From an uncultured Elusimicrobia bacterium (GTDB lineage: Bacteria > Elusimicrobiota > Endomicrobiia > Endomicrobiales > Endomicrobiaceae), in the NCBI GenBank assembly GCA_937916125.1, contig CALGGE010000066.1:27908-91907 (forward strand): DNA of 64,000 nt, read 5' to 3'. Of this stretch, positions 2,210 to 49,900 are shown one piece after another. The stretch's first letter is position 1, and each line of letters begins with the position of its first letter. The notes under the pieces are model-generated. The model ran no database searches and was not told where the DNA came from. It was given only the letters and a program-made list of their open reading frames with translations. A program made the translations under genes and the position numbers.

Positions 2210-2220
2210 AAAAATTACTC

Positions 2221-2430
2221 CATTTTTTAAAAATCGCCTTGCGATTCTTAACAGTTGAACAGTTGAAAAGTTGAAAAGTTGAAGAGTTTCAACTGCAACG
2301 ACAACAGAAACGATGAGATTCTTCACTACGTTCAGAATGACAACGACTACAAACGGCAACGGCGAGATTTCCGACTACGACCTTCGGGAATGACACCGCT
2401 ACGCGGTTGTTGTTCCCATCCCTCTATACC
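2221..2430. repeat. composite intergenic repeat block inside the trp operon (between trpC and trpF)
   Basis: Contains the core ATCGCCTTGCGA (2233-2244), a tandem octamer array NAGTTGAA x4 ending in the hairpin AGTTGAA-GAGT-TTCAACT (2251-2294), and two copies of a GAGAT-hairpin-GAATGACA element (2315-2347, 2364-2398). The same modules recur at 4296-4372, 8221-8290, 17395-17567, 38291-38384, 40571-40609 and 46949-46985. Confidence 0.85.
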
Positions 2431-3228
2431 TCAAAATTTGCTTCGCAAATTTTCAACCGTTAAACTATGCAAAAATTGTTTTTTGTTTTCGTTTCGCATC
2501 ATACTTTCGCCTATTAATGCTCCGTTAAAACCATTGTCTTTTAACATCGCAATATCTTTTGCCGTTTTAATACCGCTTTCAGAAATCAATATTTTGTTAT
2601 TCGGCAGATATTTTCTTAATTTTACAGATGTATTAATATCAACCGTAAAAGTTTTTAAATCTCTGTTGTTAATACCGATAATTTCCGCACCGTTGTTTAG
2701 TGCTTGTTTTATTTCCTGTTCATTGTGTGTTTCCACAAGGCAGTCTAAGTTTAAACTTTTTGCAATATTTATATAATTCTGTAGAGTTTTATCGTCGAGA
2801 ATTGCACATATTAACAGTAATGCACTTGCTCCTAAAAACCTTGCCTGATATATTTGGTATTCGTCAATAATAAAATCTTTTCTTAAAACAGGAATATTTA
2901 CGATACTCGAAATTTCCTGCAAATACTTATCTTTCCCCATAAAAAAGTTCGGTTCGGTAAGTACGGATATTGCCGCTGCTCCCGCCTGTTCGTATTCTTT
3001 GGCAATATCAATATAGGGAAAATTCTCAACTATTATACCTTTTGAGGGAGAAGCTTTTTTTATTTCGCAAATGAAAGCAAAATCTTTGCTTTTTAAAGAT
3101 TCTTTAAAAAAGAAATTTTTACTTAAAGGAAGTTTTGAAACTTCCTCTTTTAAAATTTCAATGCCTTTTTCTTTTTTTTCTTTTTCTATTCTTTCTCTTT
3201 GTTTTTCTACTATATTATCCAGAATCAT
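2431..3228 (-). CDS. trpC: indole-3-glycerol phosphate synthase
   Basis: 265 aa. Motifs FICEIKKASPSKG, LRKDFIIDEYQIYQAR, GINNRDL and ESGI are present, in operon context. Confidence 0.9.
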   Translation of the reverse strand: MILDNIVEKQRERIEKEKKEKGIEILKEEVSKLPLSKNFFFKESLKSKDFAFICEIKKASPSKGIIVENFPYIDIAKEYEQAGAAAISVLTEPNFFMGKDKYLQEISSIVNIPVLRKDFIIDEYQIYQARFLGASALLLICAILDDKTLQNYINIAKSLNLDCLVETHNEQEIKQALNNGAEIIGINNRDLKTFTVDINTSVKLRKYLPNNKILISESGIKTAKDIAMLKDNGFNGALIGESMMRNENKKQFLHSLTVENLRSKF

Positions 3229-3245
3229 AATTAAAATACTCCGTA

Positions 3246-4256
3246 TTACTTCTCGTTGGATAATTTTACATACATTTCCATCTGTTTTAGAGCTTTTCCG
3301 CTGTCAATCATTTCTTTTGCAACATTTATTGCGTCAGCAACAGACAACTCGGGTTTGGCAATATGTATTGCAGCCGCAGAGTTAAGCAAAACCGCGTTAG
3401 TTTTTGCACCTTTTACTCCCGACAGTATATCTCTTGTTATTTTTGCATTTTCTTGAGGCGTTCCGCCGACCAAATCTTCTTTCTTACATCTTTCCATACC
3501 GAACTGTTCCGGCTCAATTTCATAATGTTTATATTCTCCGTTTACAACCTCACAAACGCTTGTTGCCGAACTTGCGGAAATTTCATCCAAGCCATCATTG
3601 CCGAAAACAACCATTGCACTTTTAACACCGAGATTGGACAAAACATGTGCCATAGGGTCCAACAAATCCTTTTCATACACGCCTAAAAGTTGCATATTTG
3701 CACCTGCAGGGTTAACCAACGGTCCTAAAATATTAAATATCGTTCTTATACCGAGTTCTTTTCTTACTGGAGCAACATATTTCATTGCTATGTGATAATT
3801 CTGTGCGAAAAGGAAACAGAAATTTATTTTCTCCAAAATTTCTTTGCTTTTCTCAGGCGATATTGTTATATTTGCACCGAGAGCTTCCAAAACATCTGCC
3901 GCACCGCACTTGCTGGATGCCGCTCTGTTACCGTGTTTTGCTACGGGAATTCCCGCAGCGGAAATAACGAATGCCGACGTGGAAGAAATATTAAAGGAAA
4001 AAGACTTATCCCCGCCCGTGCCTACTATTTCCAAAATATCCATATCGTTTAGAAGTTTAACACAGTGTTTTCTCATACCTGATGCCGCACCTGTTATTTC
4101 CTCGATGGTTTCTTTTTTCATTGTCATTGCGGTTAAGAAAGATGCCATTTGTATTTGGCTTGCTTTACCGCTCATTATTTCGTCTAACACTGTTTCAGCT
4201 TCCTGAAAGGTTAAATTTTGTTTTGCTACTGCTTTTACGATTGATTCTTTAATCAT
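3246..4256 (-). CDS. trpD: anthranilate phosphoribosyltransferase
   Basis: 336 aa. Motifs GTGGDKSFSFNIS and HGNRAASSKCGAADVLEALG are present, in operon context. Confidence 0.9.
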   Translation of the reverse strand: MIKESIVKAVAKQNLTFQEAETVLDEIMSGKASQIQMASFLTAMTMKKETIEEITGAASGMRKHCVKLLNDMDILEIVGTGGDKSFSFNISSTSAFVISAAGIPVAKHGNRAASSKCGAADVLEALGANITISPEKSKEILEKINFCFLFAQNYHIAMKYVAPVRKELGIRTIFNILGPLVNPAGANMQLLGVYEKDLLDPMAHVLSNLGVKSAMVVFGNDGLDEISASSATSVCEVVNGEYKHYEIEPEQFGMERCKKEDLVGGTPQENAKITRDILSGVKGAKTNAVLLNSAAAIHIAKPELSVADAINVAKEMIDSGKALKQMEMYVKLSNEK

Positions 4257-4295
4257 ATAAATCTCCTTTAGAACTGCTTATAGTGACCGTGAATT

Positions 4296-4372
4296 TTAAA
4301 CTTTTCAACTATTCAACTTTTCAACTTCAACGACGAGATGCTTCGACAAGCTCAGCATGACAGACGAGACGA
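4296..4372. repeat. intergenic-type repeat block overlapping the 3' end of trpG
   Basis: TTCAAC-oriented oligomer array (CTTTTCAACTATTCAACTTTTCAACTTCAAC, 4301-4331) followed by the GAGATGCT-TCGACAAGCTC-AGCATGACAGAC hairpin element (4335-4368). Confidence 0.8.
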
Positions 4373-4932
4373 CAAAAGTTTTTTACAATTTGGTATCCGT
4401 TCGGTGTAAGAACCGATTCCGGATGAAACTGAACTCCGTAAACCTGATATTTATTGTGACATACTGCCATTATTTCCCCATCATCGGTTGTTCTTGCTAC
4501 GACTTTTAATTCTTTAGGTAACGTATTCTCTAAAACAGCGAGAGAATGATATCTGCCTACAACAAAATTTTTATCAAGTTCTTCAAAAATAGGACATTTA
4601 TTATCTGTTTCAATTTCTGATTGTTTACCATGCATTAAATTTTTTGCATAAGAAATAGTAGCACCGTAAGCCTCACATATTGCCTGATGACCTAAACAAA
4701 CACCTAATATGGGAATTTTTCCTGCAAGTCTTTTAACAACTTCTATACATATTCCTGCTTCCGAAGGTTTACCCGGTCCCGGTGATAAAATAATTTTTTC
4801 CGGGTTTAATTTTTCTATTTCTTCAACGGTTATTTCATTGTTTCGTTTTACCAATATATCGGGATTGATTGAACCGACATACTGGTATAAGTTATAAACG
4901 AAACTGTCGTAATTGTCTATTAATAAAATCAT
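4327..4932 (-). CDS. trpG: anthranilate synthase component II (glutamine amidotransferase)
   Basis: 201 aa. Class-I amidotransferase contexts GVCLGHQ and VQFHPES are present. The last ~15 codons (CRLVCHAELVEASRR) are encoded by the repeat element at 4335-4368. Confidence 0.9.
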   Translation of the reverse strand: MILLIDNYDSFVYNLYQYVGSINPDILVKRNNEITVEEIEKLNPEKIILSPGPGKPSEAGICIEVVKRLAGKIPILGVCLGHQAICEAYGATISYAKNLMHGKQSEIETDNKCPIFEELDKNFVVGRYHSLAVLENTLPKELKVVARTTDDGEIMAVCHNKYQVYGVQFHPESVLTPNGYQIVKNFCRLVCHAELVEASRR

Positions 4933-4942
4933 TTAAATCTCC

Positions 4943-6400
4943 TCAAAAATCGCCTTGCGAAAATTTTAGTGCATTAACTACTGCTTTTGCTTTATTTATG
5001 CATTCCTGATATTCGTTCTCGGGGATACTGTCTGCAACAATCCCTGCACCGGAACGTATAAAAACTTTATTATTCTTTTTAAAAGCTATTCTTATTGAAA
5101 TACATGTATCCATATTCCCCGAAAAATCAATATACCCTATAGCTCCGCCGTAAATACCTCTTTTATTTTGTTCCAATTCATTTATAATTTGACAGGCTCT
5201 TATTTTCGGTGCTCCGGAAAGTGTCCCCGCAGGAAGAACGGAATCTATCGCATCAAGAGCAGTTTTATCGTCGCGAATTTCACCCGCAACGGTTGAACCG
5301 ATATGCATAACATGAGAAAACCTTTCTATGCTCATATATTTTTCTACTTTTACCGAGCCGAATTTACTGATTTTTCCTAAATCATTTCTGCCCAAATCAA
5401 CAAGCATATTGTGTTCTGCCAGTTCTTTCTTGTCGGAAAGAAGTTCTTTTTCAAGCTCTAAATCTTCCCGTGAAGTTTTGCCTCTCGGTCTTGTCCCTGC
5501 CAAAGGAAAAGTATGCAAAACGCCGTCTTTCAGCTTTACCAATGTTTCCGGTGACGCACCTGCAATTTCAATATCTTTACTGCAAAAATAAAACATATAC
5601 GGCGACGGATTGGTGGTTCTTAAAATTCTGTAAGTATCCAGCAGGCTTCCCTCGATATCGGCTTCAATTCTGTTGGATAACACAGCCTGAAAAATATCTC
5701 CGTCTTTAATGTACTGCTTTGTTCTGTTTACTATATCGCAAAATTCCCGTTTACTGAAAAGATATCTGAAGTCCGATTTTAATTTCAACGGTTCGTCCTT
5801 TGCCGGTGAGCCGTTTTTGATAAGTTCTGCCATTTTATTAAGTTCTTCAACGGCATTTTTATAATTCCGTTCCAAATTATCCGTCTTAATATTAATTATC
5901 AAAATAATTTTCTGTCTTAAATTATCAAAAGCTATAACTTTATCGAACAACATCAAATCAACATCGTTGAATTTTTCGTCATCTTTTGCATCCAAATTTA
6001 AAGCAGGTTCGGAATATTTGATATAATCGTAGGAGAAATAGCCCACCAAACCTCCGGTAAAAGGCGGTAAAGTCTCTATTTTCGGGCTTTTATACTCTTT
6101 AAGGATATCTTTTATGTATTTTTTAGGATCGTCGTTATTTGATACCGTTTTGCCGTTTATTTTGATAATATTATTTAAGCAGGTAAATTCAAGCTTGGGT
6201 TCATAGCCCAAGAAAGTGTATCTTCCCCATTTAGAGGAATCTTCCAAACTTTCAAGCATATAGCAATGATTGCTTACCGATTTAAGGATTTTTAAAACCT
6301 GAATAGGTGTTTTGATATCGCTGTAAAGTTCGCAACTTACCGGAACGGTTTTGTAGTTTTTTGCCAACTCTGCGATTTGTTCATAAGAAGGTGTATTCAT
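4943..6400 (-). CDS. trpE: anthranilate synthase component I
   Basis: Start placed at MNTPSYEQ (ATG 6398-6400), because the 17 upstream track codons overlie the T-box terminator. Chorismate-binding motifs LSGAPKIRA and GIYGGAIGY are present. Confidence 0.9.
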   Translation of the reverse strand: MNTPSYEQIAELAKNYKTVPVSCELYSDIKTPIQVLKILKSVSNHCYMLESLEDSSKWGRYTFLGYEPKLEFTCLNNIIKINGKTVSNNDDPKKYIKDILKEYKSPKIETLPPFTGGLVGYFSYDYIKYSEPALNLDAKDDEKFNDVDLMLFDKVIAFDNLRQKIILIINIKTDNLERNYKNAVEELNKMAELIKNGSPAKDEPLKLKSDFRYLFSKREFCDIVNRTKQYIKDGDIFQAVLSNRIEADIEGSLLDTYRILRTTNPSPYMFYFCSKDIEIAGASPETLVKLKDGVLHTFPLAGTRPRGKTSREDLELEKELLSDKKELAEHNMLVDLGRNDLGKISKFGSVKVEKYMSIERFSHVMHIGSTVAGEIRDDKTALDAIDSVLPAGTLSGAPKIRACQIINELEQNKRGIYGGAIGYIDFSGNMDTCISIRIAFKKNNKVFIRSGAGIVADSIPENEYQECINKAKAVVNALKFSQGDF

Positions 6401-6830: not shown

Positions 6831-8060
6831 TTATGCCCATAGAGAAGAGATAGGAACAGCAAATAAATTGTCTTTTTGTGAAATAATATTATTCCCTGTA
6901 TATAGAATAATTCCTATAAAATTTTTATTCTTAGCAATATTGTTTTTAAACCACTTCAAATGCTTAAAAGAATCATTGTCGATATTTACACCGGATTTTA
7001 CTTCTATTCCTAATAAATCTCCATCCGAATTTTCTATAACAAAATCAACTTCTCTGTTATCTTTATCTCTGTAATGGTATAAATTATATTCATTAAAGAA
7101 ACAATCTATATTTGAAGATAATTCATTAAAAACAAAAGTTTCTGTTAATTTTCCGACAATATCGGCACTTTCTCTTACTTTGTTAAAATTTAAATTCAAT
7201 AATGAGGATATTATTCCTGTATCACAAATATAAAGTTTATCTTTCTTGGTAACATATTGGTAATCGTTAATTAAATACGGATTGACTCTTTCTGCTAAAT
7301 ACATATTTTCAAGAATTGAAATATAAGTATCAAAAGTTTGTTTTGTTATTGATAAAGAGCTTAATATAGCATTTTTCTCCATATATTTTGACGACCAGCT
7401 TGCAAGAATTTTTAATAAATCTTTCAATGCAGATTGTCTTTTAATATTTGCTATATCTTTTAAATCGTTTTCTATTAATGTATTAATATAATTTAAATAC
7501 CAAATTCTTTTCTCTTTTAAGTCTTTGTCAAATGTTATAGGGTAACCTCCGTCGAGAGCCAATTGAATTATATCATCTCTTGTATAATTTCTTTTATTAT
7601 TTATAAAAATACCTTTGAATGCATTTTGCAAAAAAACAGGTTCTTTTTGATTTTTTTCTCCCTGAGAAAATGTTCTTAAACGGATTTTTTGAACTCTTCC
7701 TGCCAAAGATTCTCTTACAGCAGGATTTGCCTGAATATTAGAAGAACCTGTTATTAAAAATTGTCCATTATTATTATTCTCATCAACTACTTTTTTTATG
7801 GAAGAAATAAGTTCGGGAGCTTTTTGTATTTCATCAATAATCATAGTCTTTGACGATTTTTTTAAAAAACCATCCGGATCTAAATTTGCAAATTTTCTTT
7901 GAGAAAAATCATCAAGAGTTTTGTATGTGGAATTTTTTAATGAGGCAGATTTTGCCAATGTTGTTTTGCCACATTGTCTTGACCCTGTTAAAATAACAAC
8001 TCGGCTGTTTTTTAAAGCATCTCTTATTGAGTTTTCTTGCCATCTTTTATAAAGTTTCAT
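6831..8060 (-). CDS. AAA-family ATPase with C-terminal DUF4143-type domain
   Basis: Walker A is ILTGSRQCGKTTLAK. The C-terminal RDKDNREVDFVIENSDGDLLGIEVKSG is typical of the AAA_14/DUF4143 family. Start chosen at MKLYKR; an alternative ATG lies at 8075. Confidence 0.7.
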   Translation of the reverse strand: MKLYKRWQENSIRDALKNSRVVILTGSRQCGKTTLAKSASLKNSTYKTLDDFSQRKFANLDPDGFLKKSSKTMIIDEIQKAPELISSIKKVVDENNNNGQFLITGSSNIQANPAVRESLAGRVQKIRLRTFSQGEKNQKEPVFLQNAFKGIFINNKRNYTRDDIIQLALDGGYPITFDKDLKEKRIWYLNYINTLIENDLKDIANIKRQSALKDLLKILASWSSKYMEKNAILSSLSITKQTFDTYISILENMYLAERVNPYLINDYQYVTKKDKLYICDTGIISSLLNLNFNKVRESADIVGKLTETFVFNELSSNIDCFFNEYNLYHYRDKDNREVDFVIENSDGDLLGIEVKSGVNIDNDSFKHLKWFKNNIAKNKNFIGIILYTGNNIISQKDNLFAVPISSLWA

Positions 8061-8115
8061 TATAACCCCTTTCAAATTTCTTGTTTCTTTTTTATATATT
8101 ATGATATAAAATTAT

Positions 8116-8212
8116 AAAAAAAGCAAAAATAATTTCGTAAAAAACATAAAAATAACTTAGTAAAAAACGCAAAAAATAATCATATTTCTGCACAAAAAAC
8201 ATAAAATTAATG
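8116..8212. repeat. four imperfect ~23-bp A-rich direct repeats upstream of the AAA ATPase gene
   Basis: AAAAAAGCAAAAATAATTTCG / TAAAAAACATAAAAATAACTTAG / TAAAAAACGCAAAAAATAATCAT / ACAAAAAACATAAAATTAATG at 8116, 8138, 8161 and 8192. Confidence 0.6.
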
Positions 8213-8220
8213 TTTGCTTT

Positions 8221-8290
8221 TGTCGCTATACTTCTTTAGAAGTATAGCGACAAAATTCCCGACTACGAACTTCGGGAATGACAGACAGGA
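8221..8290. repeat. perfect 14-bp-stem hairpin followed by a hairpin-GAATGACA repeat element
   Basis: TGTCGCTATACTTC-TTTA-GAAGTATAGCGACA (8221-8252), then ATTCCCGA-CTACGAACT-TCGGGAAT-GACAGAC (8254-8290). The second is related to the elements at 2315-2398 and 4335-4368. Confidence 0.8.
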
Positions 8291-8439
8291 CGGCGATATA
8301 CAAAGTATGACTTTAAAAAAAAGAAAAAATAAAATGTTGACAATATGTCCAATATATACTACACTTACATAAAAGAAAAGCAGTCAACAAGAAGATATAA
8401 AGAAAGCAAAGAAAATTAAAAAGATTTTGGGGGTATAAA

Positions 8440-8787
8440 ATGAAAAATAAAAGATTAGAAGACATAACAGAGGAAGATGCAAGAATAGTAGGAGGAGATT
8501 TTTTTGAAGATTTGGCAGAAGATTATGCTAAAAATCCTAAGAAATTAAAAGCTTACATTAAATCAGTTAACGAAGTTTACAGAGAAACCGGAGATGTTGA
8601 TATTTTGACTACAGCTTTAAAAATTATAGCTATGGTAAAAAAGAATATTAAACAGCAGGCAAAAAAAGCTAAAATGCAGAGAAGTACAATATATAATATT
8701 TTTAAAAAAGGAGCTAATCCTACATTTAGAAATGTTGCCAAATATACCAACAGTTTAGGCATACATTTGCAGTTTGTTTTAGATTAA
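8440..8787 (+). CDS. putative addiction-module antidote protein (HigA-like HTH, TIGR02684-type)
   Basis: 115 aa. The C-terminal part ALKIIAMVKKNIKQQAKKAKMQRSTIYNIFKKGANPTFRNVAKYTNSLGIHLQFV matches the family pattern as I recall it (..IA.A.G....A...G..R..LY.al...gNP.f.t...v..aLG..L). A GGGGG RBS precedes the ATG. Confidence 0.65.
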   Translation: MKNKRLEDITEEDARIVGGDFFEDLAEDYAKNPKKLKAYIKSVNEVYRETGDVDILTTALKIIAMVKKNIKQQAKKAKMQRSTIYNIFKKGANPTFRNVAKYTNSLGIHLQFVLD

Positions 8788-8860
8788 GTATTTTATCCGG
8801 AAGAATTTATTTCAAAAGATTGTATATCAAACAATGAAAAAATACTAAAAATACCGTAGG

Positions 8861-9889
8861 TTAAATGCTTTTTTTGACATCACCGCGATCGGTAACTATT
8901 CGATAACCTGCATTTTGTACTCTTCGTTCCAAACAACCTCTGCATTCAGCAGCTTCTTCTCCGGTGCAAATTTTGTTATCATATAAAGAGTACAATTTTC
9001 TATATCCTACGGGAGAAAGGTTAGGCATAACTACGTTTGCCCCCGCTTTCAGCCCCAATTCTCGCCCCTCGGGAGATACTGTGCCCAATGCCGTAGTCGC
9101 CGGAATCAACGCATAAGGAAACATCAATCTTAAAATTGCAATAAGTTTTAATGTTACGGTTAAACTTCCGTTTTTTAATTTTTCAAAGCGGGTATTTTTT
9201 GCCGGTATAAACGGACCTATTCCTATCATATCGGGTTTAAGTTTCTGTAAAAAACGCAAATCTTCAATAAGATTTTCCACAGTTTGATAAGGAGAACCTA
9301 CCATAAAACCGCTTCCTACCTGATAACCTGTTTCTTTTAAATCAAAAAGACATTTTTTTCTGTTTTCCAACGATAAATTATCAGGATGAAGTTTTTTATA
9401 ATGAGATTCCGTTGCCGTTTCATGACGAAGAAAATATCTCTCTGCACCGGCATTAAAAAATGCCTGATAACTGCCTCTGCTTTTTTCTCCCAAAGATAAA
9501 GTTACAGCACAGTCAGGATATTCTTGTTTTATTGTGCATATTATATCGCAAATTTTTTCATCGGTAAAAAAGACATCTTCCCCGCCCTGCAAAACAAAAG
9601 TTCTGTAGCCCAAACCATATCCCTGTTTACAGCAGTTAAGAATTTCTTTTTTTGTCAGTCTGTATCTTTCTATTTTTCTGTTGGTGCAATTTATTCCGCA
9701 ATAATAACAACCGTTTTTACAATAGTTCGTTATTTCTATTAATCCTCGTAAATAAACGGCATCACCGTAAACTTCACGCCGTACGGAATCCGCCTGTTTA
9801 AAAAGTTCTTCATTGACGGAATTATCGACAAGAAGTACCTTTAATTCTTTATCCAATAAGTTGTGAGTTGTTTTTAATTTATTTATCAT
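8861..9889 (-). CDS. hydE: [FeFe]-hydrogenase maturase HydE (radical SAM)
   Basis: 342 aa. The radical-SAM cluster motif NYCKNGCYYCGINCTNRKIERYRL and VLQGGED are present. The overall pattern is HydE-like rather than BioB-like. Confidence 0.7.
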   Translation of the reverse strand: MINKLKTTHNLLDKELKVLLVDNSVNEELFKQADSVRREVYGDAVYLRGLIEITNYCKNGCYYCGINCTNRKIERYRLTKKEILNCCKQGYGLGYRTFVLQGGEDVFFTDEKICDIICTIKQEYPDCAVTLSLGEKSRGSYQAFFNAGAERYFLRHETATESHYKKLHPDNLSLENRKKCLFDLKETGYQVGSGFMVGSPYQTVENLIEDLRFLQKLKPDMIGIGPFIPAKNTRFEKLKNGSLTVTLKLIAILRLMFPYALIPATTALGTVSPEGRELGLKAGANVVMPNLSPVGYRKLYSLYDNKICTGEEAAECRGCLERRVQNAGYRIVTDRGDVKKSI

Positions 9890-17133: not shown

Positions 17134-17421
17134 ATGTTAAAAAATGAAGAAACAAGAATAGCAATAATAGCAATAGTCATAGAAGATAAAACGAAGTCTA
17201 ATATTGTAAATTCCATATTACACGATTATGCTGATTTATTTGTCGGCAGGATGGGTATTCCGTTTAAAGAAAAGAAGATATCGGTTATTACTCTTATTGC
17301 TCAGGGAACTAATGATATTATTTCTTCTCTTACGGGAAAATTGGGACGGATAGAAGGTATTACGGTAAATTCAATGTTGACAAAAAAAGTTATAACGACA
17401 GTTGAAGAGTTGAAGAGTTGA
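17134..17421 (+). CDS. small ACT/NikR-C-like protein resembling the TM1266-family putative iron-only hydrogenase system regulator
   Basis: 95 aa. RIAIIAIVIED....IVNSILHDYADLFVGRMGIPFKEKKISVITLIAQGTNDIISSLTGKLGRIEG matches my recollection of TIGR03959. hydE is nearby. The last 8 codons (TTVEELKS) are encoded by the repeat array. Confidence 0.5.
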   Translation: MLKNEETRIAIIAIVIEDKTKSNIVNSILHDYADLFVGRMGIPFKEKKISVITLIAQGTNDIISSLTGKLGRIEGITVNSMLTKKVITTVEELKS

Positions 17422-17567
17422 AAACGGCAATGTACAATGTATGATGTACAATGTACAATGAACGGCAACGACAACGACAGTTGAAAAGTTGAAGAGTTGA
17501 AGAGTTGAAAACGGCAATGTACAATGTACAATGTATGATGAACGACAGTTGAAGAGTTTAAACGGCG
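17395..17567. repeat. largest mosaic oligomer repeat array (a ~75-80 bp composite unit, 2.3 copies)
   Basis: The unit is ACGACA + (GAGTTGAA)n + AACGGCAA + (TGTACAA/TGTATGA)n + TGAACGGC. It occurs at 17395-17468 and 17475-17550, with a partial copy at 17542-17567. It lies between the convergent TM1266-like gene and P2. Confidence 0.85.
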
Positions 17568-20500
17568 TACGGTAAAGACTATGAGGCGGATAATATTTTT
17601 CTGATATTTTCGGTTATATTATCCCCGAAAATATAATCTGCAATTCTTAATATACCGGGATCAATTGCAGGACGTACGGGTTCAATTTCTTCCTTCTTAC
17701 AAGCTTTCATAAGCCCTGCGAGTAAAAGTCTTGCCTTATAAACGGTATCTTGTCTGTTATCCATATATCCTAAAGCATCTTTTGACAATATTGAAAAAGC
17801 TTCTTTAAACACCATTGAATCAGAATACAAACTGCCCGCCTTTACCTGAGAAGAATATAAATTTAAAATATTATTCCGTTTAGGACCTTGTTCATACTCG
17901 ATAAATTCATCCGGTTGTAAAGAAAAAACATCTTCAATATTCATTTTTTCCTTAAATAAAGATACGTGTGCCAACATTCCGTAAAAAATTTTCTGTCTCA
18001 TATCTGCTGCCTGCTGAGTATCTCTACTGACATACGGATTAACTACAAATTTAAAAACTTTGCCGAAATCACCCTGCTTGTATTTTCTTACAATATTTGC
18101 CTCGTATATTCCAAATAAAAAGCTGCTGCTTACGGAAATTCTTGTTTGTTTGGATTCCACAAAATAATCAAACAGATAAGAAAAATGTTCTTTCACATAA
18201 CTGCTTGCCGTAGTATCACTTTCGTTTCTTAATATCCTTGCTATTTCTTCCTCTTCCTGTTGAGATAAATTAACTTCCTGACGGGTTCCGTACTCATAAG
18301 CAAACCTCATTCTCTCTTTCATTCCTTTGGTTTCTTTAAACAATCTCATAAGATCCGATACGGCCTGTATTATATTGGAATTTTCTTTTGTATCTTCTTT
18401 TAATCGCTGTGCATATAACATATTTACCGGGATTATAAGTTTACCTATAGAATCACTGTTTATCACTTTCTGAAGAATTTCCTCAAGTCTCTCATCTATT
18501 ATATGATCCAAATAGACATCTTCCCCTTTTTCTGCAAGCAGAGCCAAACTTCCGGGATAACTGCCCTTAAGCAAAATACTATCTCTCTTGTTTGATAAAA
18601 ATACCAATCTTGTTTCATATTCCTGCTGGTCCTTATAAATTGAAATTTCATAATTCACATCGTTCATCTCCGACAAATCATATTTCCCTTCCATAAGAAG
18701 TTCTTCTTTACTTGATAAAGTTCTTGTAATTTTCAAATCATCAAAAAAATCTTTAAATTCATTCCAAACTTTATCGGCAACCTGAACAGAGATTTCAATA
18801 TCCGGAAGTTCATTTCTTATATTCTCAAAATCGTTTAAAACGGATTTAATATCTTCAATTGAACAATTTGCCAAGTCAAGTTTTATTCCGTCAACACCTA
18901 TATCATTTACGTCAACACTGATCGTTCTTACAAAAGTTTTAAAAAACTCGTCGAAAAATCTGAAAGTATATTCAAGCACCATTTTTTTACCGTTCTTATG
19001 TAAATTACCTGAAAGTTTGGTTAAATTTTCTTTTACCGTAGTTTCTCTGTTTAAAACACGAACATTTAAATTATTGTCTCTGATAACAACTGTTATAAAA
19101 TCTATATCACTGCCATTTAATATTTCAATAAATTCATTTTCTTCAAGTTCATTATTAAAAATATGTTCATCTGAAGCTATTTTTACACCTACATAAGAAG
19201 ATTTTTGCTCGAAAAATTCGCCGAAGAAAGATTTTCTCTTCAAAGCTTTAACGGCTTTTACATTTTCTGCAACCGCTCTCATATCTTCGGCAACATGAGG
19301 ATATTTCAAATCTTTTCTTCCTATTCTTGCAATAATATCTTCTATATTTACTACGGTATCGTATCCCATAACTTCCATTTCTTTTTCGTTTTCGGAATTT
19401 TTGCTTAAAACTACAGGTATATAAGTTTTGCCAAGAACCGACAGTGTCTGCCTTGCAGGTATTTGCGGAAACCCGTTAAAAGAAATAATACTGTTCTCTT
19501 CCTGTACTAAAAATTGCTTTGCATATTCCAACAAAACATCCTGCCAAATTAAACGTGTATCGGAAATTCCGACCAATATAATGATACCGTTATTATTTTT
19601 TAAAACATATACGGGTATTTTAACACCGTTCTTTTCCAAAATTGTCGGGTTACCATAAACTTCCTCTTCCAAAACGGAATTCTTAACGGGAACTATCGTT
19701 AAAGATAAAAAACCGAGTTTTACTTTAGCGTTAACGGCTTCTCTGATTCTTGCAATATCCAAAGTATCTGCTACATCCGACTCAATGGCAATCCAATTTC
19801 CTTTTTCAAATTTTGAGACCGTAGTATTAAAAAAACTTCTCACATTTGAATACAACTCTATAAAAACTCTCTTTAAATTGTCGTATATATACGTAACTTT
19901 ACCTTTTTTTATTGAAGGATTCTGAAGAAGTTTTTCCTCAACATTTAAATTTTGCATTTCTTCTCCTTCGTAAACATAAATTACATTTTCCTGCCATGGG
20001 AAACCTGCTTGAGTAAGCATTCTGTCAAAACTTTCCTTTCCATAATTATATGTAGCCATTAACGTTTCCAAATATGCCTGTTCGTTATGACCTCTGTTTC
20101 CCTCCGGGTACATTACTATCGTCAAACCGTCAATTTTTAAAACTTCTATTTTTTCAACATCTTTTGCCGTTGATCTTTTATACCAAACATCAAATATTTT
20201 ATCATCTTTTAAATCGCCGTAGATAATATCGGAAAATTTATCGGCAATAGAATCATCCTGAAAATAAACAGCAAGCTCTTTCAGCAAATATCCGGGCATA
20301 AATACAATAGAATCTTTACCGGACTTTGAATATTCCAATGCCTTATCCATAAAAGCTTTAAATTCTTCATTGGCTAAAATTTGCTCTTCCGGATGACTAT
20401 CATAATTACTTAATTTTTTATAGGTATATTTAACGGATTCCACGGGCCATATAAAAACAAATGTTTTATTTTCAAAATTCGGGAAAAAAGTCGTCAAAAC

Positions 20501-38290: not shown

Positions 38291-38384
38291 AAAAAATCGC
38301 CTTGCGATTTTTTAGCTGAACAGCTGAGAAGCTGAGGAGCTGAAAAGTTTATTGTACATTATACATTGTGTACTGTACATTGTC
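38291..38384. repeat. composite intergenic repeat block between the PHP gene and the DUF2779 gene
   Basis: Hairpin AAAAAATCG-CCTTG-CGATTTTTT (38291-38313), octamer array NAGCTGAR x4 (38314-38347), and a TGTACAT-type heptamer array (38352-38384). The last array encodes the PHP C-terminus ..NVQYTMYNVQ. Confidence 0.8.
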
Positions 38385-40570: not shown

Positions 40571-40609
40571 AATGTACAATGTATGATGTACAATGTATAA
40601 TGAACGGCG
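40571..40609. repeat. TGTACAA heptamer array
   Basis: AATGTACAATGTATGATGTACAATGTATAATGAACGGCG has the same module order as in 17428-17468. Confidence 0.8.
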
Positions 40610-46930: not shown

Positions 46931-46966
46931 TTTACATTTCACAACAAACCTTTTAACTTTTCAACT

Positions 46967-46985
46967 AAAAATCGTTTCACGATTT
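46967..46985. repeat. AAAATCG-loop-CGATTTT hairpin abutting the giant ORF stop codon
   Basis: AAAATCG-TTTCA-CGATTTT has the same arms as the hairpin at 38291-38313. It is preceded by a TTTTCAAC oligomer (46949-46965). Confidence 0.7.
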
Positions 46986-49900
46986 TTACGCCGATGCTGC
47001 AATTGCATGTATGTTCGAAAGCTTCATCAACGCCGTAGGCATACGATCTCTTGCTGCTCCTCTTCCGTCCGCCAACAACGCTCCCAAATCTTTCATAAAG
47101 TCTTCTTTTACATACGATATCTTCTCGGTTACCGCTTTCTGCAGTTTAACTACATCTATCTCAAATGTCTCGTCTTCGTATTCTTTCTTGCCTACAACGC
47201 TGTCTTTTATCGCCGTCGTTACTACATTCTGATTGACTGCCTTGCTTATTACAAGTTTGCTCATTATGTCTTCCGGTCTTGTGCTTGCACTGTCTAACAA
47301 CGCAATCATTCCGTTATCTTTATTCGCCATTATCAACATATCTCTTACTACCGATAATATCTCTATCGATGCCTGTATATCGCTGCCGCTCACATCTTCC
47401 ATCGCTAATATTTCGCCCGCTCTCTGCGTGTATGCTTGTACTATATCCTGAACATTCCCATTCTTTACTTCCTCTATATTATTGAACCCTATCGCCTGTG
47501 CCATCTCGTTTGAGGTCCCGTATATCGCAAGAACCGCTGCTACCGTATCTTTTATCTCCTGAGGTTTGGTTACTCCGTTTACTACCGTACTCAATATCTC
47601 TCTTACAGCCTTATTCGATTTACCTTTTACTTCTTTCCTGTCTGTTCCCAATGCTTCACAAACTGCATTTATTGAAGATGTTATAGGTGCTAATCCTTTG
47701 TTCCTTGCTGATGTTTCAGGTACCATCACTATCCCCTCAAATCCCATCGCTTTAAATTCTTCCGGTGTTACGGATACCGTCCTGATATCAAATGTTCCGG
47801 ATTCTTTATCAAGTTCGCTGTATGATATCGCGTCTTTACTTATACTTTCTATATTTACAACGTGGTCCGTTCCAAGCAATCCTATCATTCCTTTCTTCGG
47901 AACTTTTACTTCCGTTATCTCTTCCGCATATACGGCTTTGGCTCTCGGCATTACGCTACCGAGTTCCTGTAACAAATCTCCTATCGTTACATCTATTACG
48001 GAACTTGTTCCCGCTACTTTCAGCTCTTCTATTGCCGTCGTGTAATCACTACCAGCAATATCTGTTACGGAAGAATCTATTCTTGCCGCAATAAAGTCTG
48101 CTATAGCATCGGTATTAAAGCCCATCGACGCCATTACAACTACCGCACAGTTGGATACTGCCGCCTCTATCGTTTCATTGTCTATACTGCCTTTTACTCT
48201 ATCGCTGACTTTTGTCGCTATCTCCGTATACGGATTTACTGTCTCGGAAACTTCTGCCTTCTCCGCTTCCTGCCGTGCAGGCTGAACCGCCGGCTGTTTC
48301 TTGCCTATCGCAAAACCTTTCGTTTCTACTTTTCTCGTCTCTCTGTTGAACGTTAATCCAAACGTTATATCGTTACCGTCGGATGCCTTGGTAAGTGCCG
48401 CTTCTACCTGTTTATTCGCTTCCTCAAAGTTCGTTACAAGTTTCTGCAATTGTCCTTGTGCAGCAAACATTTCTCTGAATTTTATCCTGTCGCCAAACGT
48501 TATCTTTTCGCCTTTATTCGATTTCGCTACCAAATCATTATATGCCGCTTTCTTCTCTTCGCTCATTCCATCATATATCGCAGATATCTTGCCTTCCTGT
48601 TTGGAATAGTTATCGTTTATGTCTCTTACCGCTTTTATCAATTTATTTACGCTTACTTTAGGACTCTGTTCCTGTATCAGTTCAAGCCCTGCAAGAACGT
48701 CTCCGCTAAACACTCTCTGCACTCTTTCGTCACTTGTATCCGTTACCGCACCTGCTTTAAATTCATTACATGCTGCAACATATTTCATATAACTGTCATA
48801 CGCAAACCATGTATCTCTTGCCATCTGTTTCGTTTCGTCAGTCGCACTGTCTCTGTTTATCTCAAGTATCTTATTCATTACTCTGTCCGTCGCTTCTTCT
48901 CCTATCATTGTAGCCATCAATCCTCTCGCTTCCGCGTAAGTAGGTGCTATTATCTCCATCGCTCTCTGTTTCTGCGACCAGACTTTCTTTTCATTTACTA
49001 CCGCATTATTTGCTTTCTGTAATGTCGCCTCTTCATTGGATTCCATTACATCATTCAAATTGCTCAATATCATTCCAACACTGTATCCGTCATTCTTCTT
49101 TGCTGCTTCTCTTAATATCTTGTTCTCTCTTACCGAATCTACCGATGTTATCTGTACTATATCTCTGTTGAAGAATTCCGAACTGAATCTTGATTTTCCA
49201 TCTCTGTGGGCAAATCTTCCATTTCCCTGCTCTGACTGCGTTGCATCCATCTTCTCAAAGTTTACTTTCCACATCGTCGCCTGTACTTTCGCTTCCCCTT
49301 CTATACCCTGTTTCGCTTTCAAGTTGTTTACTGCTCCGCCCATATCGCCCGGGTTCCATCCTCTTCCAAGCAAGCTCACATCTCCTACTATAAACGATAC
49401 TTCTCCCTTCTTCATTACATTCTTTAATACTTCCTGCAACACTTTCGTCTTCGTATCTATATCTATTTCCCCGAGTTTATCTACACTGTAATCGGATACC
49501 CCGTTTGCTGCCATAACTTCCGCTACCTGTGCATACTGATATCTCTTTCTATCCGAAAGTTTCGTCAACTCTCTGTCAAGTAAGTCTAACGACAAACTTA
49601 CTATGTCTTCGGATGATATTCCGTTCTTCTCCAATCCCTCTACCAACTGTGTCGTTACATCAAAGTTGGCCGTCATTATCAAATCTACTCCCGCAGTCCC
49701 CTGTCTGTTCAACTTCTGTCTGGATGTCGCTATTACTTCCGCTATATCTCCCTGTGTCTGTGTTAATGCCGTCGTTACTCCTACCTTCATACTGTCGGGC
49801 ATACTACCGCCTATCTCCTCATAATCCAAATCTTTTAACATTGTCCTTATTGATGCACTGAATGTCCCTGAGAAGCCTACCGACCAATCAAATGCCGCTA

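What the first reader, a model, noticed from the sequence alone, without database searches (positions are those of the whole stretch)
17395..17567. Mosaic arrays of tandem octamers and heptamers recurring at gene boundaries
The same short modules are recombined at seven loci. The first module is (N)AGTTGAA octamers, found at 2251-2294, 17395-17425, 17478-17512 and 17545-17560. It occurs inverted as TTCAAC at 4301-4331 and 46949-46965, and as the variant AGCTGAR at 38314-38347. The second module is TGTACAA/TGTATGA heptamers, at 17428-17460, 17515-17540, 38352-38384 and 40571-40602. The third is short CAACGA / AACGGC linkers. At 17395-17567 a ~75-80 bp composite unit is itself duplicated. The arrays always lie between genes or overlap gene 3' ends. 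They have no spacers (so not CRISPR) and no coding potential of their own. I do not recognise them as a described REP/BIME/MITE family. Candidate roles are protein-binding arrays, transcription or RNA-processing signals, or recombination hotspots.
Basis: seen in the sequence. Interest (0 to 1): 0.6.

Follow-up and report, generated by a model that had tools for sequence, protein, structure and literature searches.

The report
Modular short-repeat mosaics between genes
The spacers between genes of this rumen Endomicrobia-type bacterium are filled by a fast-changing family of 7- and 8-base tandem repeats and small hairpins joined in a fixed order, which is a new and unusually modular example of the poorly understood short tandem repeat DNA known from cyanobacteria and other bacteria, and most likely selfish or neutral DNA, not a signal.

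Summary
All seven loci exist, and chance expects none (10 and 9 pattern matches against 0.00 and 0.01 in shuffles).

It is a genome-wide family: about 290 loci and 16 kb in a 1.75 Mb draft, about 15-fold enriched outside genes.

Four cassette types recur:
- O: (AGTTGAA+N)n
- H: (TGTAYRA)n, whose commonest four-unit form is a hairpin
- P: hairpins of the form GAG[AT..AT]GACA
- L: AACGRC linkers at almost every joint

The cassettes keep one polarity and a directional order (O→H 52 times, H→O 0).

Orientation relative to genes is random. Only 8 of 42 array-bearing orthologous spacers are shared with the sister species (83% identity). Each species has its own variants: AGTTGAA here, AGCTGAR there, and hairpin hpA at 49 copies here against 0 there. 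Copies also sit in frame inside conserved genes, including FolP and a glycosyltransferase-TPR pair.

There is no Rfam match, no reverse transcriptase, no RAYT, no terminal inverted repeats and no regular target duplication.

Best reading: an STRR/LSSR- and BIME-like selfish or neutral repeat family that spreads by copy-paste and slippage.

Unexplained: the 7-base core is nearly invariant while the 8th base is random, and multi-locus AGTTGAA-N array families recur in unrelated phyla.

The parts
2229..2249 (.). T module: A/T-flanked mini-hairpin AAAAATCGC-CTTG-GCGATT at the edge of the array, between trpC and trpF
   Evidence: Read. The AAAATCGC(N3-5)GCGATTTT type occurs 34 times in the genome.
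2253..2293 (+). O cassette: AGTTGAAC AGTTGAAA AGTTGAAA AGTTGAAG, then AGTTTCAAC
2291..2395 (+). L-P-L-P string: AACTGCAACGAC linkers, hairpin hpB (2315-2342), linker AACGGCAACGGC, hairpin of the hpC type (2364-2395)
   Evidence: Orthologous trpF-trpC spacers are 23 nt in G001 and G002.
4295..4326 (-). O cassette in reverse orientation (TTCAACT units)
4335..4362 (+). P hairpin hpA: GAGATGCTTCGACAAGCTCAGCATGACA. This is one of the rare loci where O and P have opposite polarity.
   Evidence: The orthologous spacer is about 15 nt in G002, G005 and G006.
17395..17567 (+). The reported locus. Layout: AACGAC linker, O3 (17400-17423), AACGGCAA, canonical H4 hairpin (17431-17458), TG plus L3 (17459-17478), O4 (17479-17510), AACGGCAA, H3 (17518-17538), TGAACGAC, O2 (17547-17562), AACGGCG. 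It lies between convergent genes. The TM1266-like gene (17134-17421) takes its last 8 codons and its TGA stop from the linker and the O array.
38291..38313 (.). T module hairpin AAAAAATCGC-CTTG-GCGATTTTTT
38314..38345 (+). O cassette of the AGCTGAR variant, the variant that dominates in sister species G011
38349..38381 (-). Degenerate H cassette. On the minus strand it encodes the last residues (..NVQYTMYNVQ) and the TAA stop of the PHP-domain gene 38349-39236.
40573..40609 (+). H cassette TGTACAA TGTATGA TGTACAA TGTATAA plus the TGAACGGCG linker, between two minus-strand genes
46949..46988 (-). Two-unit degenerate O remnant (CTTTTAAC TTTTCAACT) next to T hairpin AAAAATCG-TTTCA-CGATTTTT, just past the stop of the giant ORF
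   Evidence: This is the weakest member, only two units.

Best explanation
**What it is.** The arrays are copies of a species-specific, non-autonomous, modular DNA repeat family. It is of the STRR / long-simple-sequence-repeat kind, with a BIME-like mosaic build.

**How it is built.** The building blocks are short cassettes:
- O = (AGTTGAA+N)n
- H = (TGTAYRA)n, which is usually a four-unit hairpin
- P = hairpins GAG[AT...AT]GACA

The cassettes are strung in one polarity and joined by AACGRC hexamer linkers.

**How it spreads (inferred).** New copies arise at the DNA level by copy-paste without regular target duplication. The likeliest route is ectopic template switching or gene conversion, primed on the shared linkers or other microhomology. 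A second possibility is a Y1 (HUH) single-strand transposase acting on the hairpin cassettes. Unit numbers then drift by replication slippage.

**Why copies sit where they do.** The element is selfish or neutral. Copies survive only where they do little harm:
- in spacers;
- at gene ends, where the stop-rich orientation simply supplies a new stop codon;
- in frame in surface loops of proteins, in a stop-free reading.

**Shown versus inferred.** Shown here: dispersal, polarity, cassette order, rapid gain and loss, species-private variants, and in-frame insertions. Inferred: the copying mechanism and the absence of a host function.
For: **Scale and location.**
- There are 236 strict or 290 looser loci, 16.3 kb in all.
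- 70% of array bases lie in the 13.5% of the genome outside predicted ORFs.
- 57 loci have no predicted gene on one side, that is they lie at or near contig ends. Many arrays start within the first 100 bases of a contig, which suggests they break the assembly.

**One polarity and a directional order.**
- Only 5 of 290 loci mix orientations.
- Transitions: O→H 52 and H→O 0; P→O 23 and O→P 0; H→L 160; L→O 145; L→P 106.

**Copy-paste, not independent slippage.**
- The ordered block TGTACAA-TGTATGA-TGTACAA-TGTACAA makes up 44 of 189 H blocks, with fixed flanks AACGGCAA and TGAACGRC.
- hpA occurs 49 times with identical sequence.
- Alignments of hpA, hpB and H4 copies lose conservation just beyond the AACGRC linkers, and the neighbouring cassettes differ from copy to copy.

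**No strand logic relative to genes.**
- Between tandem genes: 80 sense, 73 antisense.
- Upstream of start codons: 65 against 62.
- Similar shares of tandem, convergent and divergent spacers are occupied: 153 of 1153, 18 of 125 and 21 of 127.

**Turnover and species-private variants, compared with sister species G011** (83.2% identity over 281 kb).
- Of 42 array-bearing orthologous spacers, 8 are shared, 24 are G011-only and 10 are G000-only.
- Counts per 100 kb, G000 against G011:

| Pattern | G000 | G011 |
|---|---|---|
| AGTTGAAN x2 | 18.8 | 0.3 |
| AGCTGARN x2 | 1.1 | 8.4 |
| H block CA-TG-CA | 3.5 | 0 |

- hpA occurs 49 times in G000 and 0 times in the G011 sample. hpB occurs 21 times against 0.

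**Filled versus empty sites.** Insertions of 85-240 nt sit in spacers of 3-40 nt, with no regular target duplication.

**In-frame copies inside conserved genes.**
- Two adjacent glycosyltransferase-TPR paralogues carry the element. Orthologues in G005 (78% identical), G001, G003 and G012 lack it.
- FolP carries a 22-aa 'QCIMYNVQCTTNDNGKN' insert between blocks that are 4 residues apart in PDB 2y5j.
- LpxB, a RumA-like methyltransferase and a U32 peptidase also carry in-frame copies.

**Prior work.** The literature describes the same kind of DNA with unknown function (PMC4679880, PMC4692102).
Against: **The 7+1 unit pattern.** Units flanked by two exact AGTTGAA cores have 0.05-0.26 bit of entropy at the seven core positions and 1.90-1.95 bit at the spacer base. 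Adjacent identical units are rarer than random (48 of 255; about 27% expected from base frequencies). Neutral decay or slippage does not predict variation confined to one position. This hints at recognition of the 7-mer by some factor, or at a special way of making units.

**Recurrence in other phyla.** AGTTGAA-N arrays recur as multi-locus families in unrelated phyla and in phage contigs. A composition-matched control octamer gave only 45 single-locus hits.

**No copying enzyme identified.** There is no RAYT and no RVT_1. The only Y1 transposase is an ordinary IS200-type gene that is not flanked by the repeats.

**Weak strand bias.** The forward orientation lies on the G-rich strand at 110 of 253 loci (p = 0.04). 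This is unexplained.

Confidence: 0.6

Rival explanations
1. The O arrays, and perhaps the H arrays, are functional multi-site binding arrays for a DNA-binding or single-strand-binding protein that reads the 7-mer AGTTGAA and ignores the 8th base. Candidates are a nucleoid-associated factor, a DNA-uptake factor, or a replication or recombination factor. The arrays are kept because of that binding.
For: - The core is near-invariant and the spacer base is random, in an unbiased test.
- With period 8, only the AGTTGAA register gives identical 7-mers three times in a row: 154 places against 4 or fewer for the shifted registers.
- The same pattern appears in arrays from other phyla: position 8 has 1.54 bit, core positions 2-7 have 0.24 bit or less, and position 1 has 0.68 bit.
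- Multi-locus AGTTGAA-N families exist in at least 6 unrelated genomes. The control octamer gave single loci only.
Against: - The sister species uses AGCTGAR instead and has almost no AGTTGAA arrays.
- 34 of 42 array-bearing orthologous spacers are not shared.
- Most congeners have no arrays at all, so no essential host factor can depend on them.
- Arrays are tolerated inside coding sequences and next to ribosome-binding sites of essential genes.
- No candidate protein was identified.
Confidence: 0.15
2. A REP/RAYT-like system. The hairpin cassettes (P and H4) are substrates of a domesticated Y1 (HUH) transposase. The candidate is the single IS200-type TnpA at genome C57:2957-3397. It would cut and paste single-stranded hairpin DNA at replication forks and carry adjoining tandem cassettes along.
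For: - There are about 100 P hairpins with conserved GAG / GACA flanks, several stem classes and compensatory stem changes such as ATTCCCGA..TCGGGAAT against ATGCCCGA..TCGGGCAT.
- H4 folds as an 11-bp hairpin.
- Insertions lack regular target duplications, as expected for IS200/IS605-type chemistry.
- The TnpA is single-copy. It sits at the same ribF-hrcA locus in G000 and G011 and is about 93% identical by eye, with neighbouring proteins looking less alike (about 80% by eye).
- Y1_Tnp is present in G000, G008 and G011, three of the four most repeat-rich genomes of the genus.
- There is a weak orientation bias relative to GC skew.
Against: - The protein looks like an ordinary IS200 TnpA, not a RAYT clade member. 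This judgement comes from my own knowledge of IS200 sequences and was not tested by a tree.
- Its gene is not flanked by P or H cassettes.
- The G008 enzyme is a different IS605-type gene in a phage-like context.
- G007 has a Y1 gene but almost no arrays.
- Hairpins keep one orientation within a locus, unlike the alternating REPs of BIMEs.
- There is no GTAG-type 5' motif.
- G000 and G011 are sister species, so the shared TnpA may be simple co-inheritance.
Confidence: 0.15
3. The arrays are RNA-level signals, such as terminators, processing sites or translational insulators, placed at transcription-unit boundaries.
For: - Many arrays abut A/T-flanked mini-hairpins that look like bidirectional intrinsic terminators.
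- The forward orientation carries stop codons in all three frames. It is somewhat more frequent just after stop codons (100 against 63).
- In phage contigs and Saprospirales, forward and reverse arrays pair into long hairpins just after stop codons.
Against: - Orientation relative to the transcribed strand is random (80 against 73; 65 against 62).
- The 100:63 excess follows from how ORFs end. Only the stop-rich orientation can end an ORF.
- Arrays occur in divergent spacers, which contain no 3' ends, as often as elsewhere.
- Folding of the reported locus is weak: z = -1.3 for RNA on the + strand, -0.6 for RNA on the - strand, and -2.2 for DNA.
- There is no Rfam match.
- Loci are not conserved between sister species.
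Confidence: 0.07
4. The arrays are assembly or binning artefacts of a metagenome-assembled genome.
For: Many arrays lie at contig ends (57 loci). The genome is a 111-contig draft.
Against: - Arrays lie inside long contigs, flanked by conserved syntenic genes.
- Some are in frame inside genes whose two halves match orthologues.
- Independent assemblies of related species carry related modules at some of the same spacers.
- Long-read assemblies of other phyla carry similar arrays.
Confidence: 0.01

Closest known systems
STRR (short tandemly repeated repetitive) heptamers of heterocystous cyanobacteria, and long simple sequence repeats with 5-11 nt units (Mrazek 2007, as summarised in PMC4679880 and PMC4692102)
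   Same: - Head-to-tail units of 7-8 nt at many dispersed, mostly intergenic loci.
- Several unit types mixed at one locus.
- Length and presence vary between close relatives.
- No known function.
   Different: - Different unit sequences and a different phylum (Elusimicrobiota).
- Cassettes follow a strict polarity and order and are joined by a common AACGRC linker.
- The octamer has an invariant 7-mer and a free 8th base.
- Copies also sit in frame inside essential genes.
TAACTGA heptamer direct repeats of marine Beggiatoaceae, cyanobacteria and some Bacteroidetes (MacGregor 2015, PMC4679880)
   Same: One specific short unit recurs as intergenic direct repeats in phylogenetically scattered genomes. 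It is sometimes mixed with other heptamers. No transfer mechanism is evident. Related species have empty spacers.
   Different: In the BOGUAY genome most TAACTGA sets lie a few nucleotides upstream of a start codon in the forward orientation. Here orientation is random (65 against 62) and the median distance to the start codon is 48 nt.
BIMEs / REP elements of enterobacteria and pseudomonads, with their RAYT transposases
   Same: - Mosaic combinations of small hairpin units and short linker motifs at hundreds of extragenic sites.
- The hairpins have conserved flanks.
- A single-copy Y1 transposase gene is present in the genome.
   Different: - Hairpins are not in alternating orientation.
- There is no GTAG-type 5' tetranucleotide.
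- The bulk of the element is tandem 7-8 nt arrays.
- The Y1 gene is IS200-type and is not flanked by the repeats.
Rickettsia palindromic elements (RPE; reviewed in PMC10969869)
   Same: Small non-autonomous repeats are inserted in frame into unrelated housekeeping genes. They add a peptide segment without destroying the protein.
   Different: RPEs are about 150-bp palindromic units of fixed length that encode a conserved peptide. Here the inserts are variable strings of tandem cassettes, with peptides such as CTMYNVQ or FNSSTLQL. Most copies are intergenic.
GGGAATC / GGGGAYT heptamer repeats of Xanthomonas and Nostoc (PMC4692102)
   Same: Heptamer arrays that are about 90% intergenic, occur on both strands, show no leading or lagging strand preference, and vary in length between close relatives.
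   Different: Those repeats are G-rich and form G-quadruplexes. They mostly stay between the same genes in related species. These are A/T-rich, cannot form G4 structures, and turn over quickly.

Membership tests
STRR / long simple sequence repeats (5-11 nt units) | Head-to-tail tandem units of 5-11 nt, longer than chance allows | tested here: met
   TRF finds period 7 and 8 arrays. Window matches are 10 and 9 against 0.00 and 0.01 expected.
STRR / long simple sequence repeats (5-11 nt units) | Many dispersed loci, predominantly intergenic | tested here: met
   236-290 loci. 70% of array bases lie in the 13.5% of the genome that is non-ORF.
STRR / long simple sequence repeats (5-11 nt units) | Unit number and presence vary between close relatives | tested here: met
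   8 of 42 array-bearing orthologous spacers are shared with G011. Filled and empty sites are seen.
STRR / long simple sequence repeats (5-11 nt units) | Same unit sequences as the named cyanobacterial STRR families | tested here: not met
   The units are AGTTGAAN and TGTAYRA, not the heptamers I recall for STRR1-3 (CCCCAGT, TTGGTCA, CAACAGT; from memory, no paper read here lists them). The kind is the same but the family is different.
REP / BIME with RAYT | Short imperfect palindromes at many extragenic sites | tested here: met
   About 100 P hairpins in at least 3 stem classes. The H4 block folds as an 11-bp hairpin.
REP / BIME with RAYT | Conserved GTAG/GTGG-type tetranucleotide 5' of the hairpin | tested here: not met
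   The conserved flanks are GAG and GACA(G).
REP / BIME with RAYT | REPs in alternating (inverted) orientation within a mosaic | tested here: not met
   Only 5 of 290 loci contain modules of both orientations.
REP / BIME with RAYT | Single-copy RAYT gene flanked by the repeats | tested here: inconclusive
   There is one Y1_Tnp gene. It is IS200-like, syntenic with G011, and not flanked by P or H cassettes. No tree against RAYT clades was built.
MITE | Terminal inverted repeats | tested here: not met
   Cassettes are unidirectional and no terminal inverted repeats were seen in aligned copies.
MITE | Target-site duplication of fixed length | tested here: not met
   One insertion, in the hrcA 5' region, is flanked by a CTAAAAT direct repeat. 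That motif is also a common end of reverse O arrays. The other filled/empty pairs show none.
MITE | Defined unit length | tested here: not met
   Locus length ranges from 14 to 274 nt, with variable cassette strings.
Rickettsia palindromic elements (working analogy only) | In-frame insertion in conserved protein genes | tested here: met
   Glycosyltransferase-TPR paralogues against orthologues. FolP against PDB 2y5j. LpxB.
Rickettsia palindromic elements (working analogy only) | Palindromic unit of about 100-150 bp encoding a conserved peptide | tested here: not met
   The inserts are variable cassette strings.
CRISPR array | Direct repeats of 24-48 nt separated by unique spacers of similar length | tested here: not met
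   Units are 7-8 nt and directly abut one another.
Curated RNA families (Rfam 15) | Match to a covariance model | tested here: not met
   At gathering thresholds only 2 tRNAs are found in the window. In E-value mode on the array regions nothing scores below E = 0.3.
TAACTGA-type translational repeats (BOGUAY pattern) | Forward orientation within a few nt upstream of start codons | tested here: not met
   65 sense against 62 antisense, with a median distance of 48 nt.
Polar chromosome motifs (KOPS/Chi-like) | Strong skew of orientation with the replication strand | tested here: not met
   110 of 253 loci lie on the G-rich strand (43%, p = 0.04). This is far from the strong skew I recall for such motifs. 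The genome is a draft, so GC skew served as a proxy.

The most novel reading that the evidence does not exclude
AGTTGAA+N arrays are not just slippage products. They may be a cross-phylum cis-element that a conserved factor either recognises through the 7-mer or produces unit by unit. This would explain three things:
- the core is invariant while the 8th base is random;
- identical neighbouring units are avoided;
- multi-locus AGTTGAA-N families have arisen in Elusimicrobiota, Bacteroidota, Saprospirales, Chloroflexota, Chlorobiota, Kiritimatiellae and in phage contigs.

The factor could be the machinery that propagates the arrays, or a host protein that they titrate.
Probability: 0.15. Interest if true: 0.8.

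Novelty: new variant of a known kind. Interest (0 to 1): 0.42.

Why it matters
Short-unit (7-8 nt) tandem arrays fill intergenic DNA in scattered bacterial lineages. They have been noted since 1990 without any mechanism or function. This genome and its sister species G011 form an unusually clean natural experiment.

- At 83% identity, each species has amplified its own variants of every cassette. Most insertion sites differ, and empty sites are available for comparison.
- The cassette-plus-linker grammar and the 7+1 structure of the octamer are concrete, testable constraints on how such DNA is made.
- The in-frame copies in FolP, LpxB and glycosyltransferases show that this DNA also reshapes proteins, as Rickettsia palindromic elements do.

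In practical terms, these arrays break short-read assemblies, create spurious ORFs, and shift annotated gene ends.

Tried and rejected
**Searches that found nothing**
- Rfam at gathering thresholds over the window, and in E-value mode on 2200-4420 and 17300-17650.
- Reverse transcriptase as a telomerase-like source of templated units. There is no RVT_1 in G000 or G008, so this idea was dropped.
- Literature search for the literal repeat strings and for Elusimicrobia repeats. Nothing relevant was found.

**Population and strain variation could not be examined**
- Look-up of trpF by exact product found nothing.
- Two metagenome scans, one with a unique flank and one with the canonical H4 block, found nothing.

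**RAYT idea not confirmed**
- The single Y1_Tnp gene is IS200-like and is not flanked by repeats.
- I tried to define the IS ends from an empty ribF-hrcA site. Only G011 shares that gene order, so no empty site exists.

**Two wasted scans**
- The 'reversed' control AAGTTGAN is a rotation of AGTTGAAA, so it is not a control. It was replaced by AGATGTAN.
- AGCTGAN was written with period 7 instead of 8. It was replaced by local counts.

**Other rejected or downgraded points**
- My canonical-unit tally of neighbouring arrays in other phyla was flawed, because N-variants counted as different units. It was not used.
- KOPS/Chi-like polarity: only a weak bias.
- Pilin association: 13 of 127 downstream genes are pilin-like, against 38 of 1516 genome-wide. 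These are paralogues with near-identical leaders, so this probably reflects gene-family duplication and not targeting.
- Two 'inside gene' hits are chance matches and not elements: TypA/BipA 'KVEELEGE', and a 14-nt hit on contig C19.
Full report
**1. Observation**

The stretch 17395-17567 reads as follows:
- AACGAC
- (AGTTGAAG)2 AGTTGAAA
- ACGGCAA
- TGTACAA TGTATGA TGTACAA TGTACAA
- TG AACGGC AACGAC AACGAC
- AGTTGAAA (AGTTGAAG)2 AGTTGAAA
- ACGGCAA
- TGTACAA TGTACAA TGTATGA
- TGAACGAC
- AGTTGAAG AGTTTAAA
- CGGCG

I read each of those loci and mapped them.

Chance does not explain this. AGTTGAANAGTTGAA occurs 10 times in the window against 0.00 expected. TGTAYRATGTAYRA occurs 9 times against 0.01.

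These are hairpins of about 28-32 nt with conserved flanks: GAG[ATTCTTCACTACGTTCAGAAT]GACA at 2315-2342, a second at 2364-2395, and GAG[ATGCTTCGACAAGCTCAGCAT]GACA at 4335-4362.

**2. Scale in the genome**

- The window lies in a 1.75 Mb, 111-contig draft with 34% G+C. Earlier notes of this scan call it a ruminant-gut Endomicrobiaceae bacterium. Contigs titled 'uncultured Endomicrobia bacterium', a rumen MAG, carry the same octamer arrays (L045 and L119). I did not check which congener they belong to.
- A strict search (two or more exact units) finds 236 loci. A looser tokenisation finds 290 loci and 16.3 kb.
- I used a crude ORF-based gene map, in which 86.5% of the genome is ORF. On that map, 70% of array bases fall in the 13.5% that is not ORF. 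This is about 15-fold enrichment, and arrays make up about 5% of intergenic DNA.
- Most 'coding' hits are spurious ORFs that run through the stop-free orientation.
- 57 loci have no predicted gene on one side, that is they lie at or near contig ends. Many arrays begin within the first 100 bases of a contig, so the arrays appear to break the assembly and the true number is probably higher.

**3. Anatomy**

*Polarity.* Modules keep one relative polarity. Only 5 of 290 loci mix orientations.

*Order.* The order is directional:

| Transition | Count | Reverse transition | Count |
|---|---|---|---|
| O→H | 52 | H→O | 0 |
| P→O | 23 | O→P | 0 |
| H→L | 160 | L→H | 67 |
| L→O | 145 | O→L | 108 |
| L→P | 106 | P→L | 64 |

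*H blocks.* They peak at four units (104 of 269 runs). One ordered variant, TGTACAA-TGTATGA-TGTACAA-TGTACAA, makes up 44 of 189 blocks. Its flanks are fixed (AACGGCAA on the left, TGAACGRC on the right). It folds as an 11-bp hairpin with one A·A mismatch.

*Cassette boundaries.* I aligned copies of hpA (39), hpB (17) and H4 (33) with 60-nt flanks. Conservation stops just beyond an AACGRC linker on each side, and the neighbouring cassettes differ from copy to copy. The family is therefore best described as cassettes (O, H, P) strung on a common hexamer linker.

*Other recurring parts.* These are A/T-flanked mini-hairpins (AAATTTGC-N4-GCAAATTT and AAAATCGC-N4-GCGATTTT, 40 and 34 copies) and a purine-rich RGARGATT octamer.

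**4. The octamer is 7+1**

- For units lying between two exact AGTTGAA cores, which is an unbiased test, the seven core positions have 0.05-0.26 bit of entropy. The two spacer bases have 1.90-1.95 bit.
- With period 8, only the AGTTGAA register gives three identical 7-mers in a row: 154 places against 4 or fewer for shifted registers.
- Adjacent units are identical in 48 of 255 cases. Base frequencies at position 8 predict about 27% (my arithmetic), so identical neighbours are avoided.
- The unit between two TGTACAA units is mostly TGTATGA or TGTATAA, and TGTACAA in only about 14 of 99 cases.

Plain slippage followed by neutral decay does not predict this. It is the main unexplained feature.

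**5. No strand logic relative to genes**

- Between tandem genes the forward orientation is sense 80 times and antisense 73 times. Similar shares of spacers are occupied: 153 of 1153 tandem, 18 of 125 convergent and 21 of 127 divergent.
- Upstream of start codons the split is 65 against 62, with a median distance of 48 nt.
- The excess of forward arrays just after stop codons (100 against 63) follows from the composition. The forward strand carries TGA or TAA in all three frames and so ends ORFs. The reverse strand is open in all frames.
- In the window, the TM1266-like gene (17134-17421) and the PHP-domain gene (38349-39236) take their last codons and their stop codons from arrays.
- The orientation bias relative to GC skew is weak: 110 of 253 loci on the G-rich strand, p = 0.04.
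- The reported locus folds only weakly: z = -2.2 as DNA, and -1.3 and -0.6 as RNA on the two strands.
- No Rfam family matches.

**6. Insertions into genes**

- Two adjacent paralogues encode a membrane glycosyltransferase-like N-terminal part with a TPR C-terminal part (genome C14:6206-7900 and 7992-9638). Both carry the composite element in frame after 'YIMFIFFSRS'.
- Orthologues in G005 (78% identical), G001, G003 and G012 lack this insert of roughly 40 to 100 residues. The G008 orthologue has a short 'FNSSFN' (TTCAAC...) insert at the same place.
- FolP has 'QCIMYNVQCTTNDNGKN...' between segments that are only four residues apart in the dihydropteroate synthase structure 2y5j.
- LpxB, a RumA-like methyltransferase, a U32 peptidase and an ArnT-like protein carry 'MYNVQCT' or 'FNSSTFQLFN' segments.
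- This resembles the in-frame insertions of Rickettsia palindromic elements (PMC10969869).

**7. Evolution**

*Distribution in the genus.* Matches to (AGTTGAAN)3 and to (TGTAYRA)3 in whole genomes:

| Genome | (AGTTGAAN)3 | (TGTAYRA)3 |
|---|---|---|
| G000 (this genome) | 154 | 305 |
| G008 | 16 | 6 |
| G011 | 2 | 74 |
| G005 | 0 | 10 |
| G003 | 3 | 0 |
| G001 | 1 | 1 |
| 27 genomes of other genera | 0 | 0 |

*trp operon.* Orthologous spacers are 14-23 nt in several congeners and 118-263 nt here. G008 has an element at a trpC-trpD junction that is only 8 nt long here.

*Sister species.* I fetched 356 kb of G011. It aligns to G000 at 83.2% identity over 281 kb. Among 82 collinear alignment gaps, 42 hold arrays in at least one genome: 24 only in G011, 10 only in G000, and 8 in both.

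*Filled and empty sites.* Insertions of 85-240 nt sit in spacers of 3-40 nt, and there is no regular target duplication. One case lies in the hrcA 5' region, between the CIRCE operator and the start codon. It is flanked by CTAAAAT on both sides, but that motif is also a common end of reverse O arrays, which suggests microhomology.

*Species-private variants.* Counts per 100 kb, except the two hairpins, which are total copies (G011 = the 356-kb sample):

| Pattern | G000 | G011 |
|---|---|---|
| AGTTGAAN x2 | 18.8 | 0.3 |
| AGCTGARN x2 | 1.1 | 8.4 |
| H block CA-TG-CA | 3.5 | 0 |
| hpA (copies) | 49 | 0 |
| hpB (copies) | 21 | 0 |

The hpC hairpin is shared by both species. This pattern means recent amplification or homogenisation within each species. 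The arrays are not ancient static sites.

**8. Candidate machinery**

- No RVT_1 is present in G000 or G008.
- One Y1_Tnp gene is present. Its sequence looks like a canonical IS200 TnpA (my own knowledge of IS200). It is not flanked by the repeats.
- It sits at the same ribF-hrcA locus in G011 and is about 93% identical. Because the two are sister species, this may be plain co-inheritance.
- G008 has a different, IS605-type gene in a phage-like context.
- The link between a transposase and the hairpin cassettes therefore stays a hypothesis.

**9. Beyond the genus**

- (AGTTGAAN)3 occurs in more than 112 stretches of the species-representative collection.
- Several contigs each come from a Bacteroidales MAG, a Saprospirales MAG, a Haliscomenobacter MAG, a Chloroflexota MAG and a Chlorobiota MAG, and there are many rumen MAGs.
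- In some of these the arrays are again mosaics with other 7-8 nt units. In others a forward array, a loop and a reverse array form a long hairpin.
- A composition-matched control, (AGATGTAN)3, gave 45 stretches, each a single locus in its genome. Single-locus hits such as Legionella or Halomonas are therefore background. The repeated emergence of multi-locus AGTTGAA-N families is not.
- Thirteen viral contigs carry the arrays, mostly as hairpins just after stop codons.
- Earlier notes of this scan describe similar 7-8 nt mosaics in Bacteroidales, Kiritimatiellae, Chitinophagales, Saprospiraceae, Calditrichota and NPL-UPA2. These are unchecked AI notes and I used them only as leads.

**10. Comparison with the literature**

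- The kind is known. Heptamers dominate long simple sequence repeats in prokaryotes, and slippage tied to the polymerase footprint has been proposed as the cause (Mrazek 2007, as summarised in PMC4679880 and PMC4692102).
- Tandem heptanucleotides were reported in Calothrix (cited in PMC4692102).
- TAACTGA repeats occur in Beggiatoaceae, cyanobacteria and Bacteroidetes, 'often mixed with others', and related species have empty spacers (PMC4679880).
- GGGAATC and GGGGAYT arrays occur in Xanthomonas and Nostoc (PMC4692102).
- None of these families has an established function.
- I found no description of this family or of repeats in Elusimicrobia.

**11. Verdict**

The best-supported explanation is a selfish or neutral modular repeat family. 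It spreads at the DNA level by copy-paste without target duplication, changes by slippage, and is filtered by selection to harmless positions and reading frames (confidence about 0.6).

A functional binding-array reading, and a REP/RAYT-like reading that is compatible with the main one, remain open at about 0.15 each.

The 7+1 unit structure and the cross-phylum recurrence of the AGTTGAA core are the features most worth following up.

Noticed in passing
genome C57:2957-3397 (outside the window); G011:C16, locus L286 1443-1886: A single-copy IS200-type Y1 transposase lies between ribF and hrcA in both G000 and sister species G011. It is about 93% identical in protein by eye, and the neighbouring proteins look less alike (about 80% by eye). 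It may be domesticated or may simply be co-inherited.
   Followed up: partly
genome C57:4060-4215 versus L286 2570-2655: The hrcA promoter and CIRCE operator are conserved. In G000 an 85-nt element lies between the operator and the start codon. It removes the Shine-Dalgarno sequence that sits within the operator in G011. It also creates a small upstream ORF (MKKIKLFNLSTIQLFN) whose stop codon lies one base before the hrcA ATG.
   Followed up: partly
genome C67:2760-2800; C57:4125-4165; G011 contigs C7 and C1: There is a further purine-rich octamer array type, RGARGATT (GGAAGATT / AGAGGATT / AGAAGATT). It is rich in Shine-Dalgarno-like GGAG, and is present in both G000 (32 doublets) and G011.
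   Followed up: no
genome-wide, for example C7:3872, C30:11807, C33:28066: A paralogous family of type IV pilin-like genes (MKRKLKGFTLVELVITI...) has arrays in the sense orientation just upstream. 13 of the 127 genes that have an upstream array are pilin-like, against 38 of 1516 genes overall. This is probably a gene-family duplication that carried the upstream element along.
   Followed up: partly
viral loci L269, L271, L272, L274, L277, L279-L281 (IMG/VR sample 3300045988): Phage contigs with 54-58% G+C carry several A/T-rich long hairpins each, just after stop codons. Each hairpin has a forward (AGTTGAAR)3 AAGTTAAGAGG arm, a loop, and a reverse arm.
   Followed up: no
L014, L015, L038, L052, L055 (Bacteroidales MAG CSSed10_131): An unrelated genome has its own mosaic in which (AGTTGAAR)n is combined with (GGTAGTA)n, (AGACAGA)n, (GGAACGAT)n and (CCAAAAG)n arrays.
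   Followed up: no
L037 about 6170-6245 (Bacteroidales MAG GL140_3): A hairpin similar to hpA (CATTCTGAGCCTGTCGAAGAA) lies directly next to an AGTTGAAA array in another phylum. The GTCAT..CTGAGC..GAAG..ATC hairpin type seems widespread and yields recurring 'CHSERSEESR'-like peptides in spurious ORFs.
   Followed up: no
window 45853-45925 and 46688-46760 (-): Two tRNA genes. They are the only Rfam matches in the window at gathering threshold.
   Followed up: no
genome-wide: (GACA)n tetranucleotide runs show up as a second period-8 signal (AGACAGAC, 15-18 positions).
   Followed up: no
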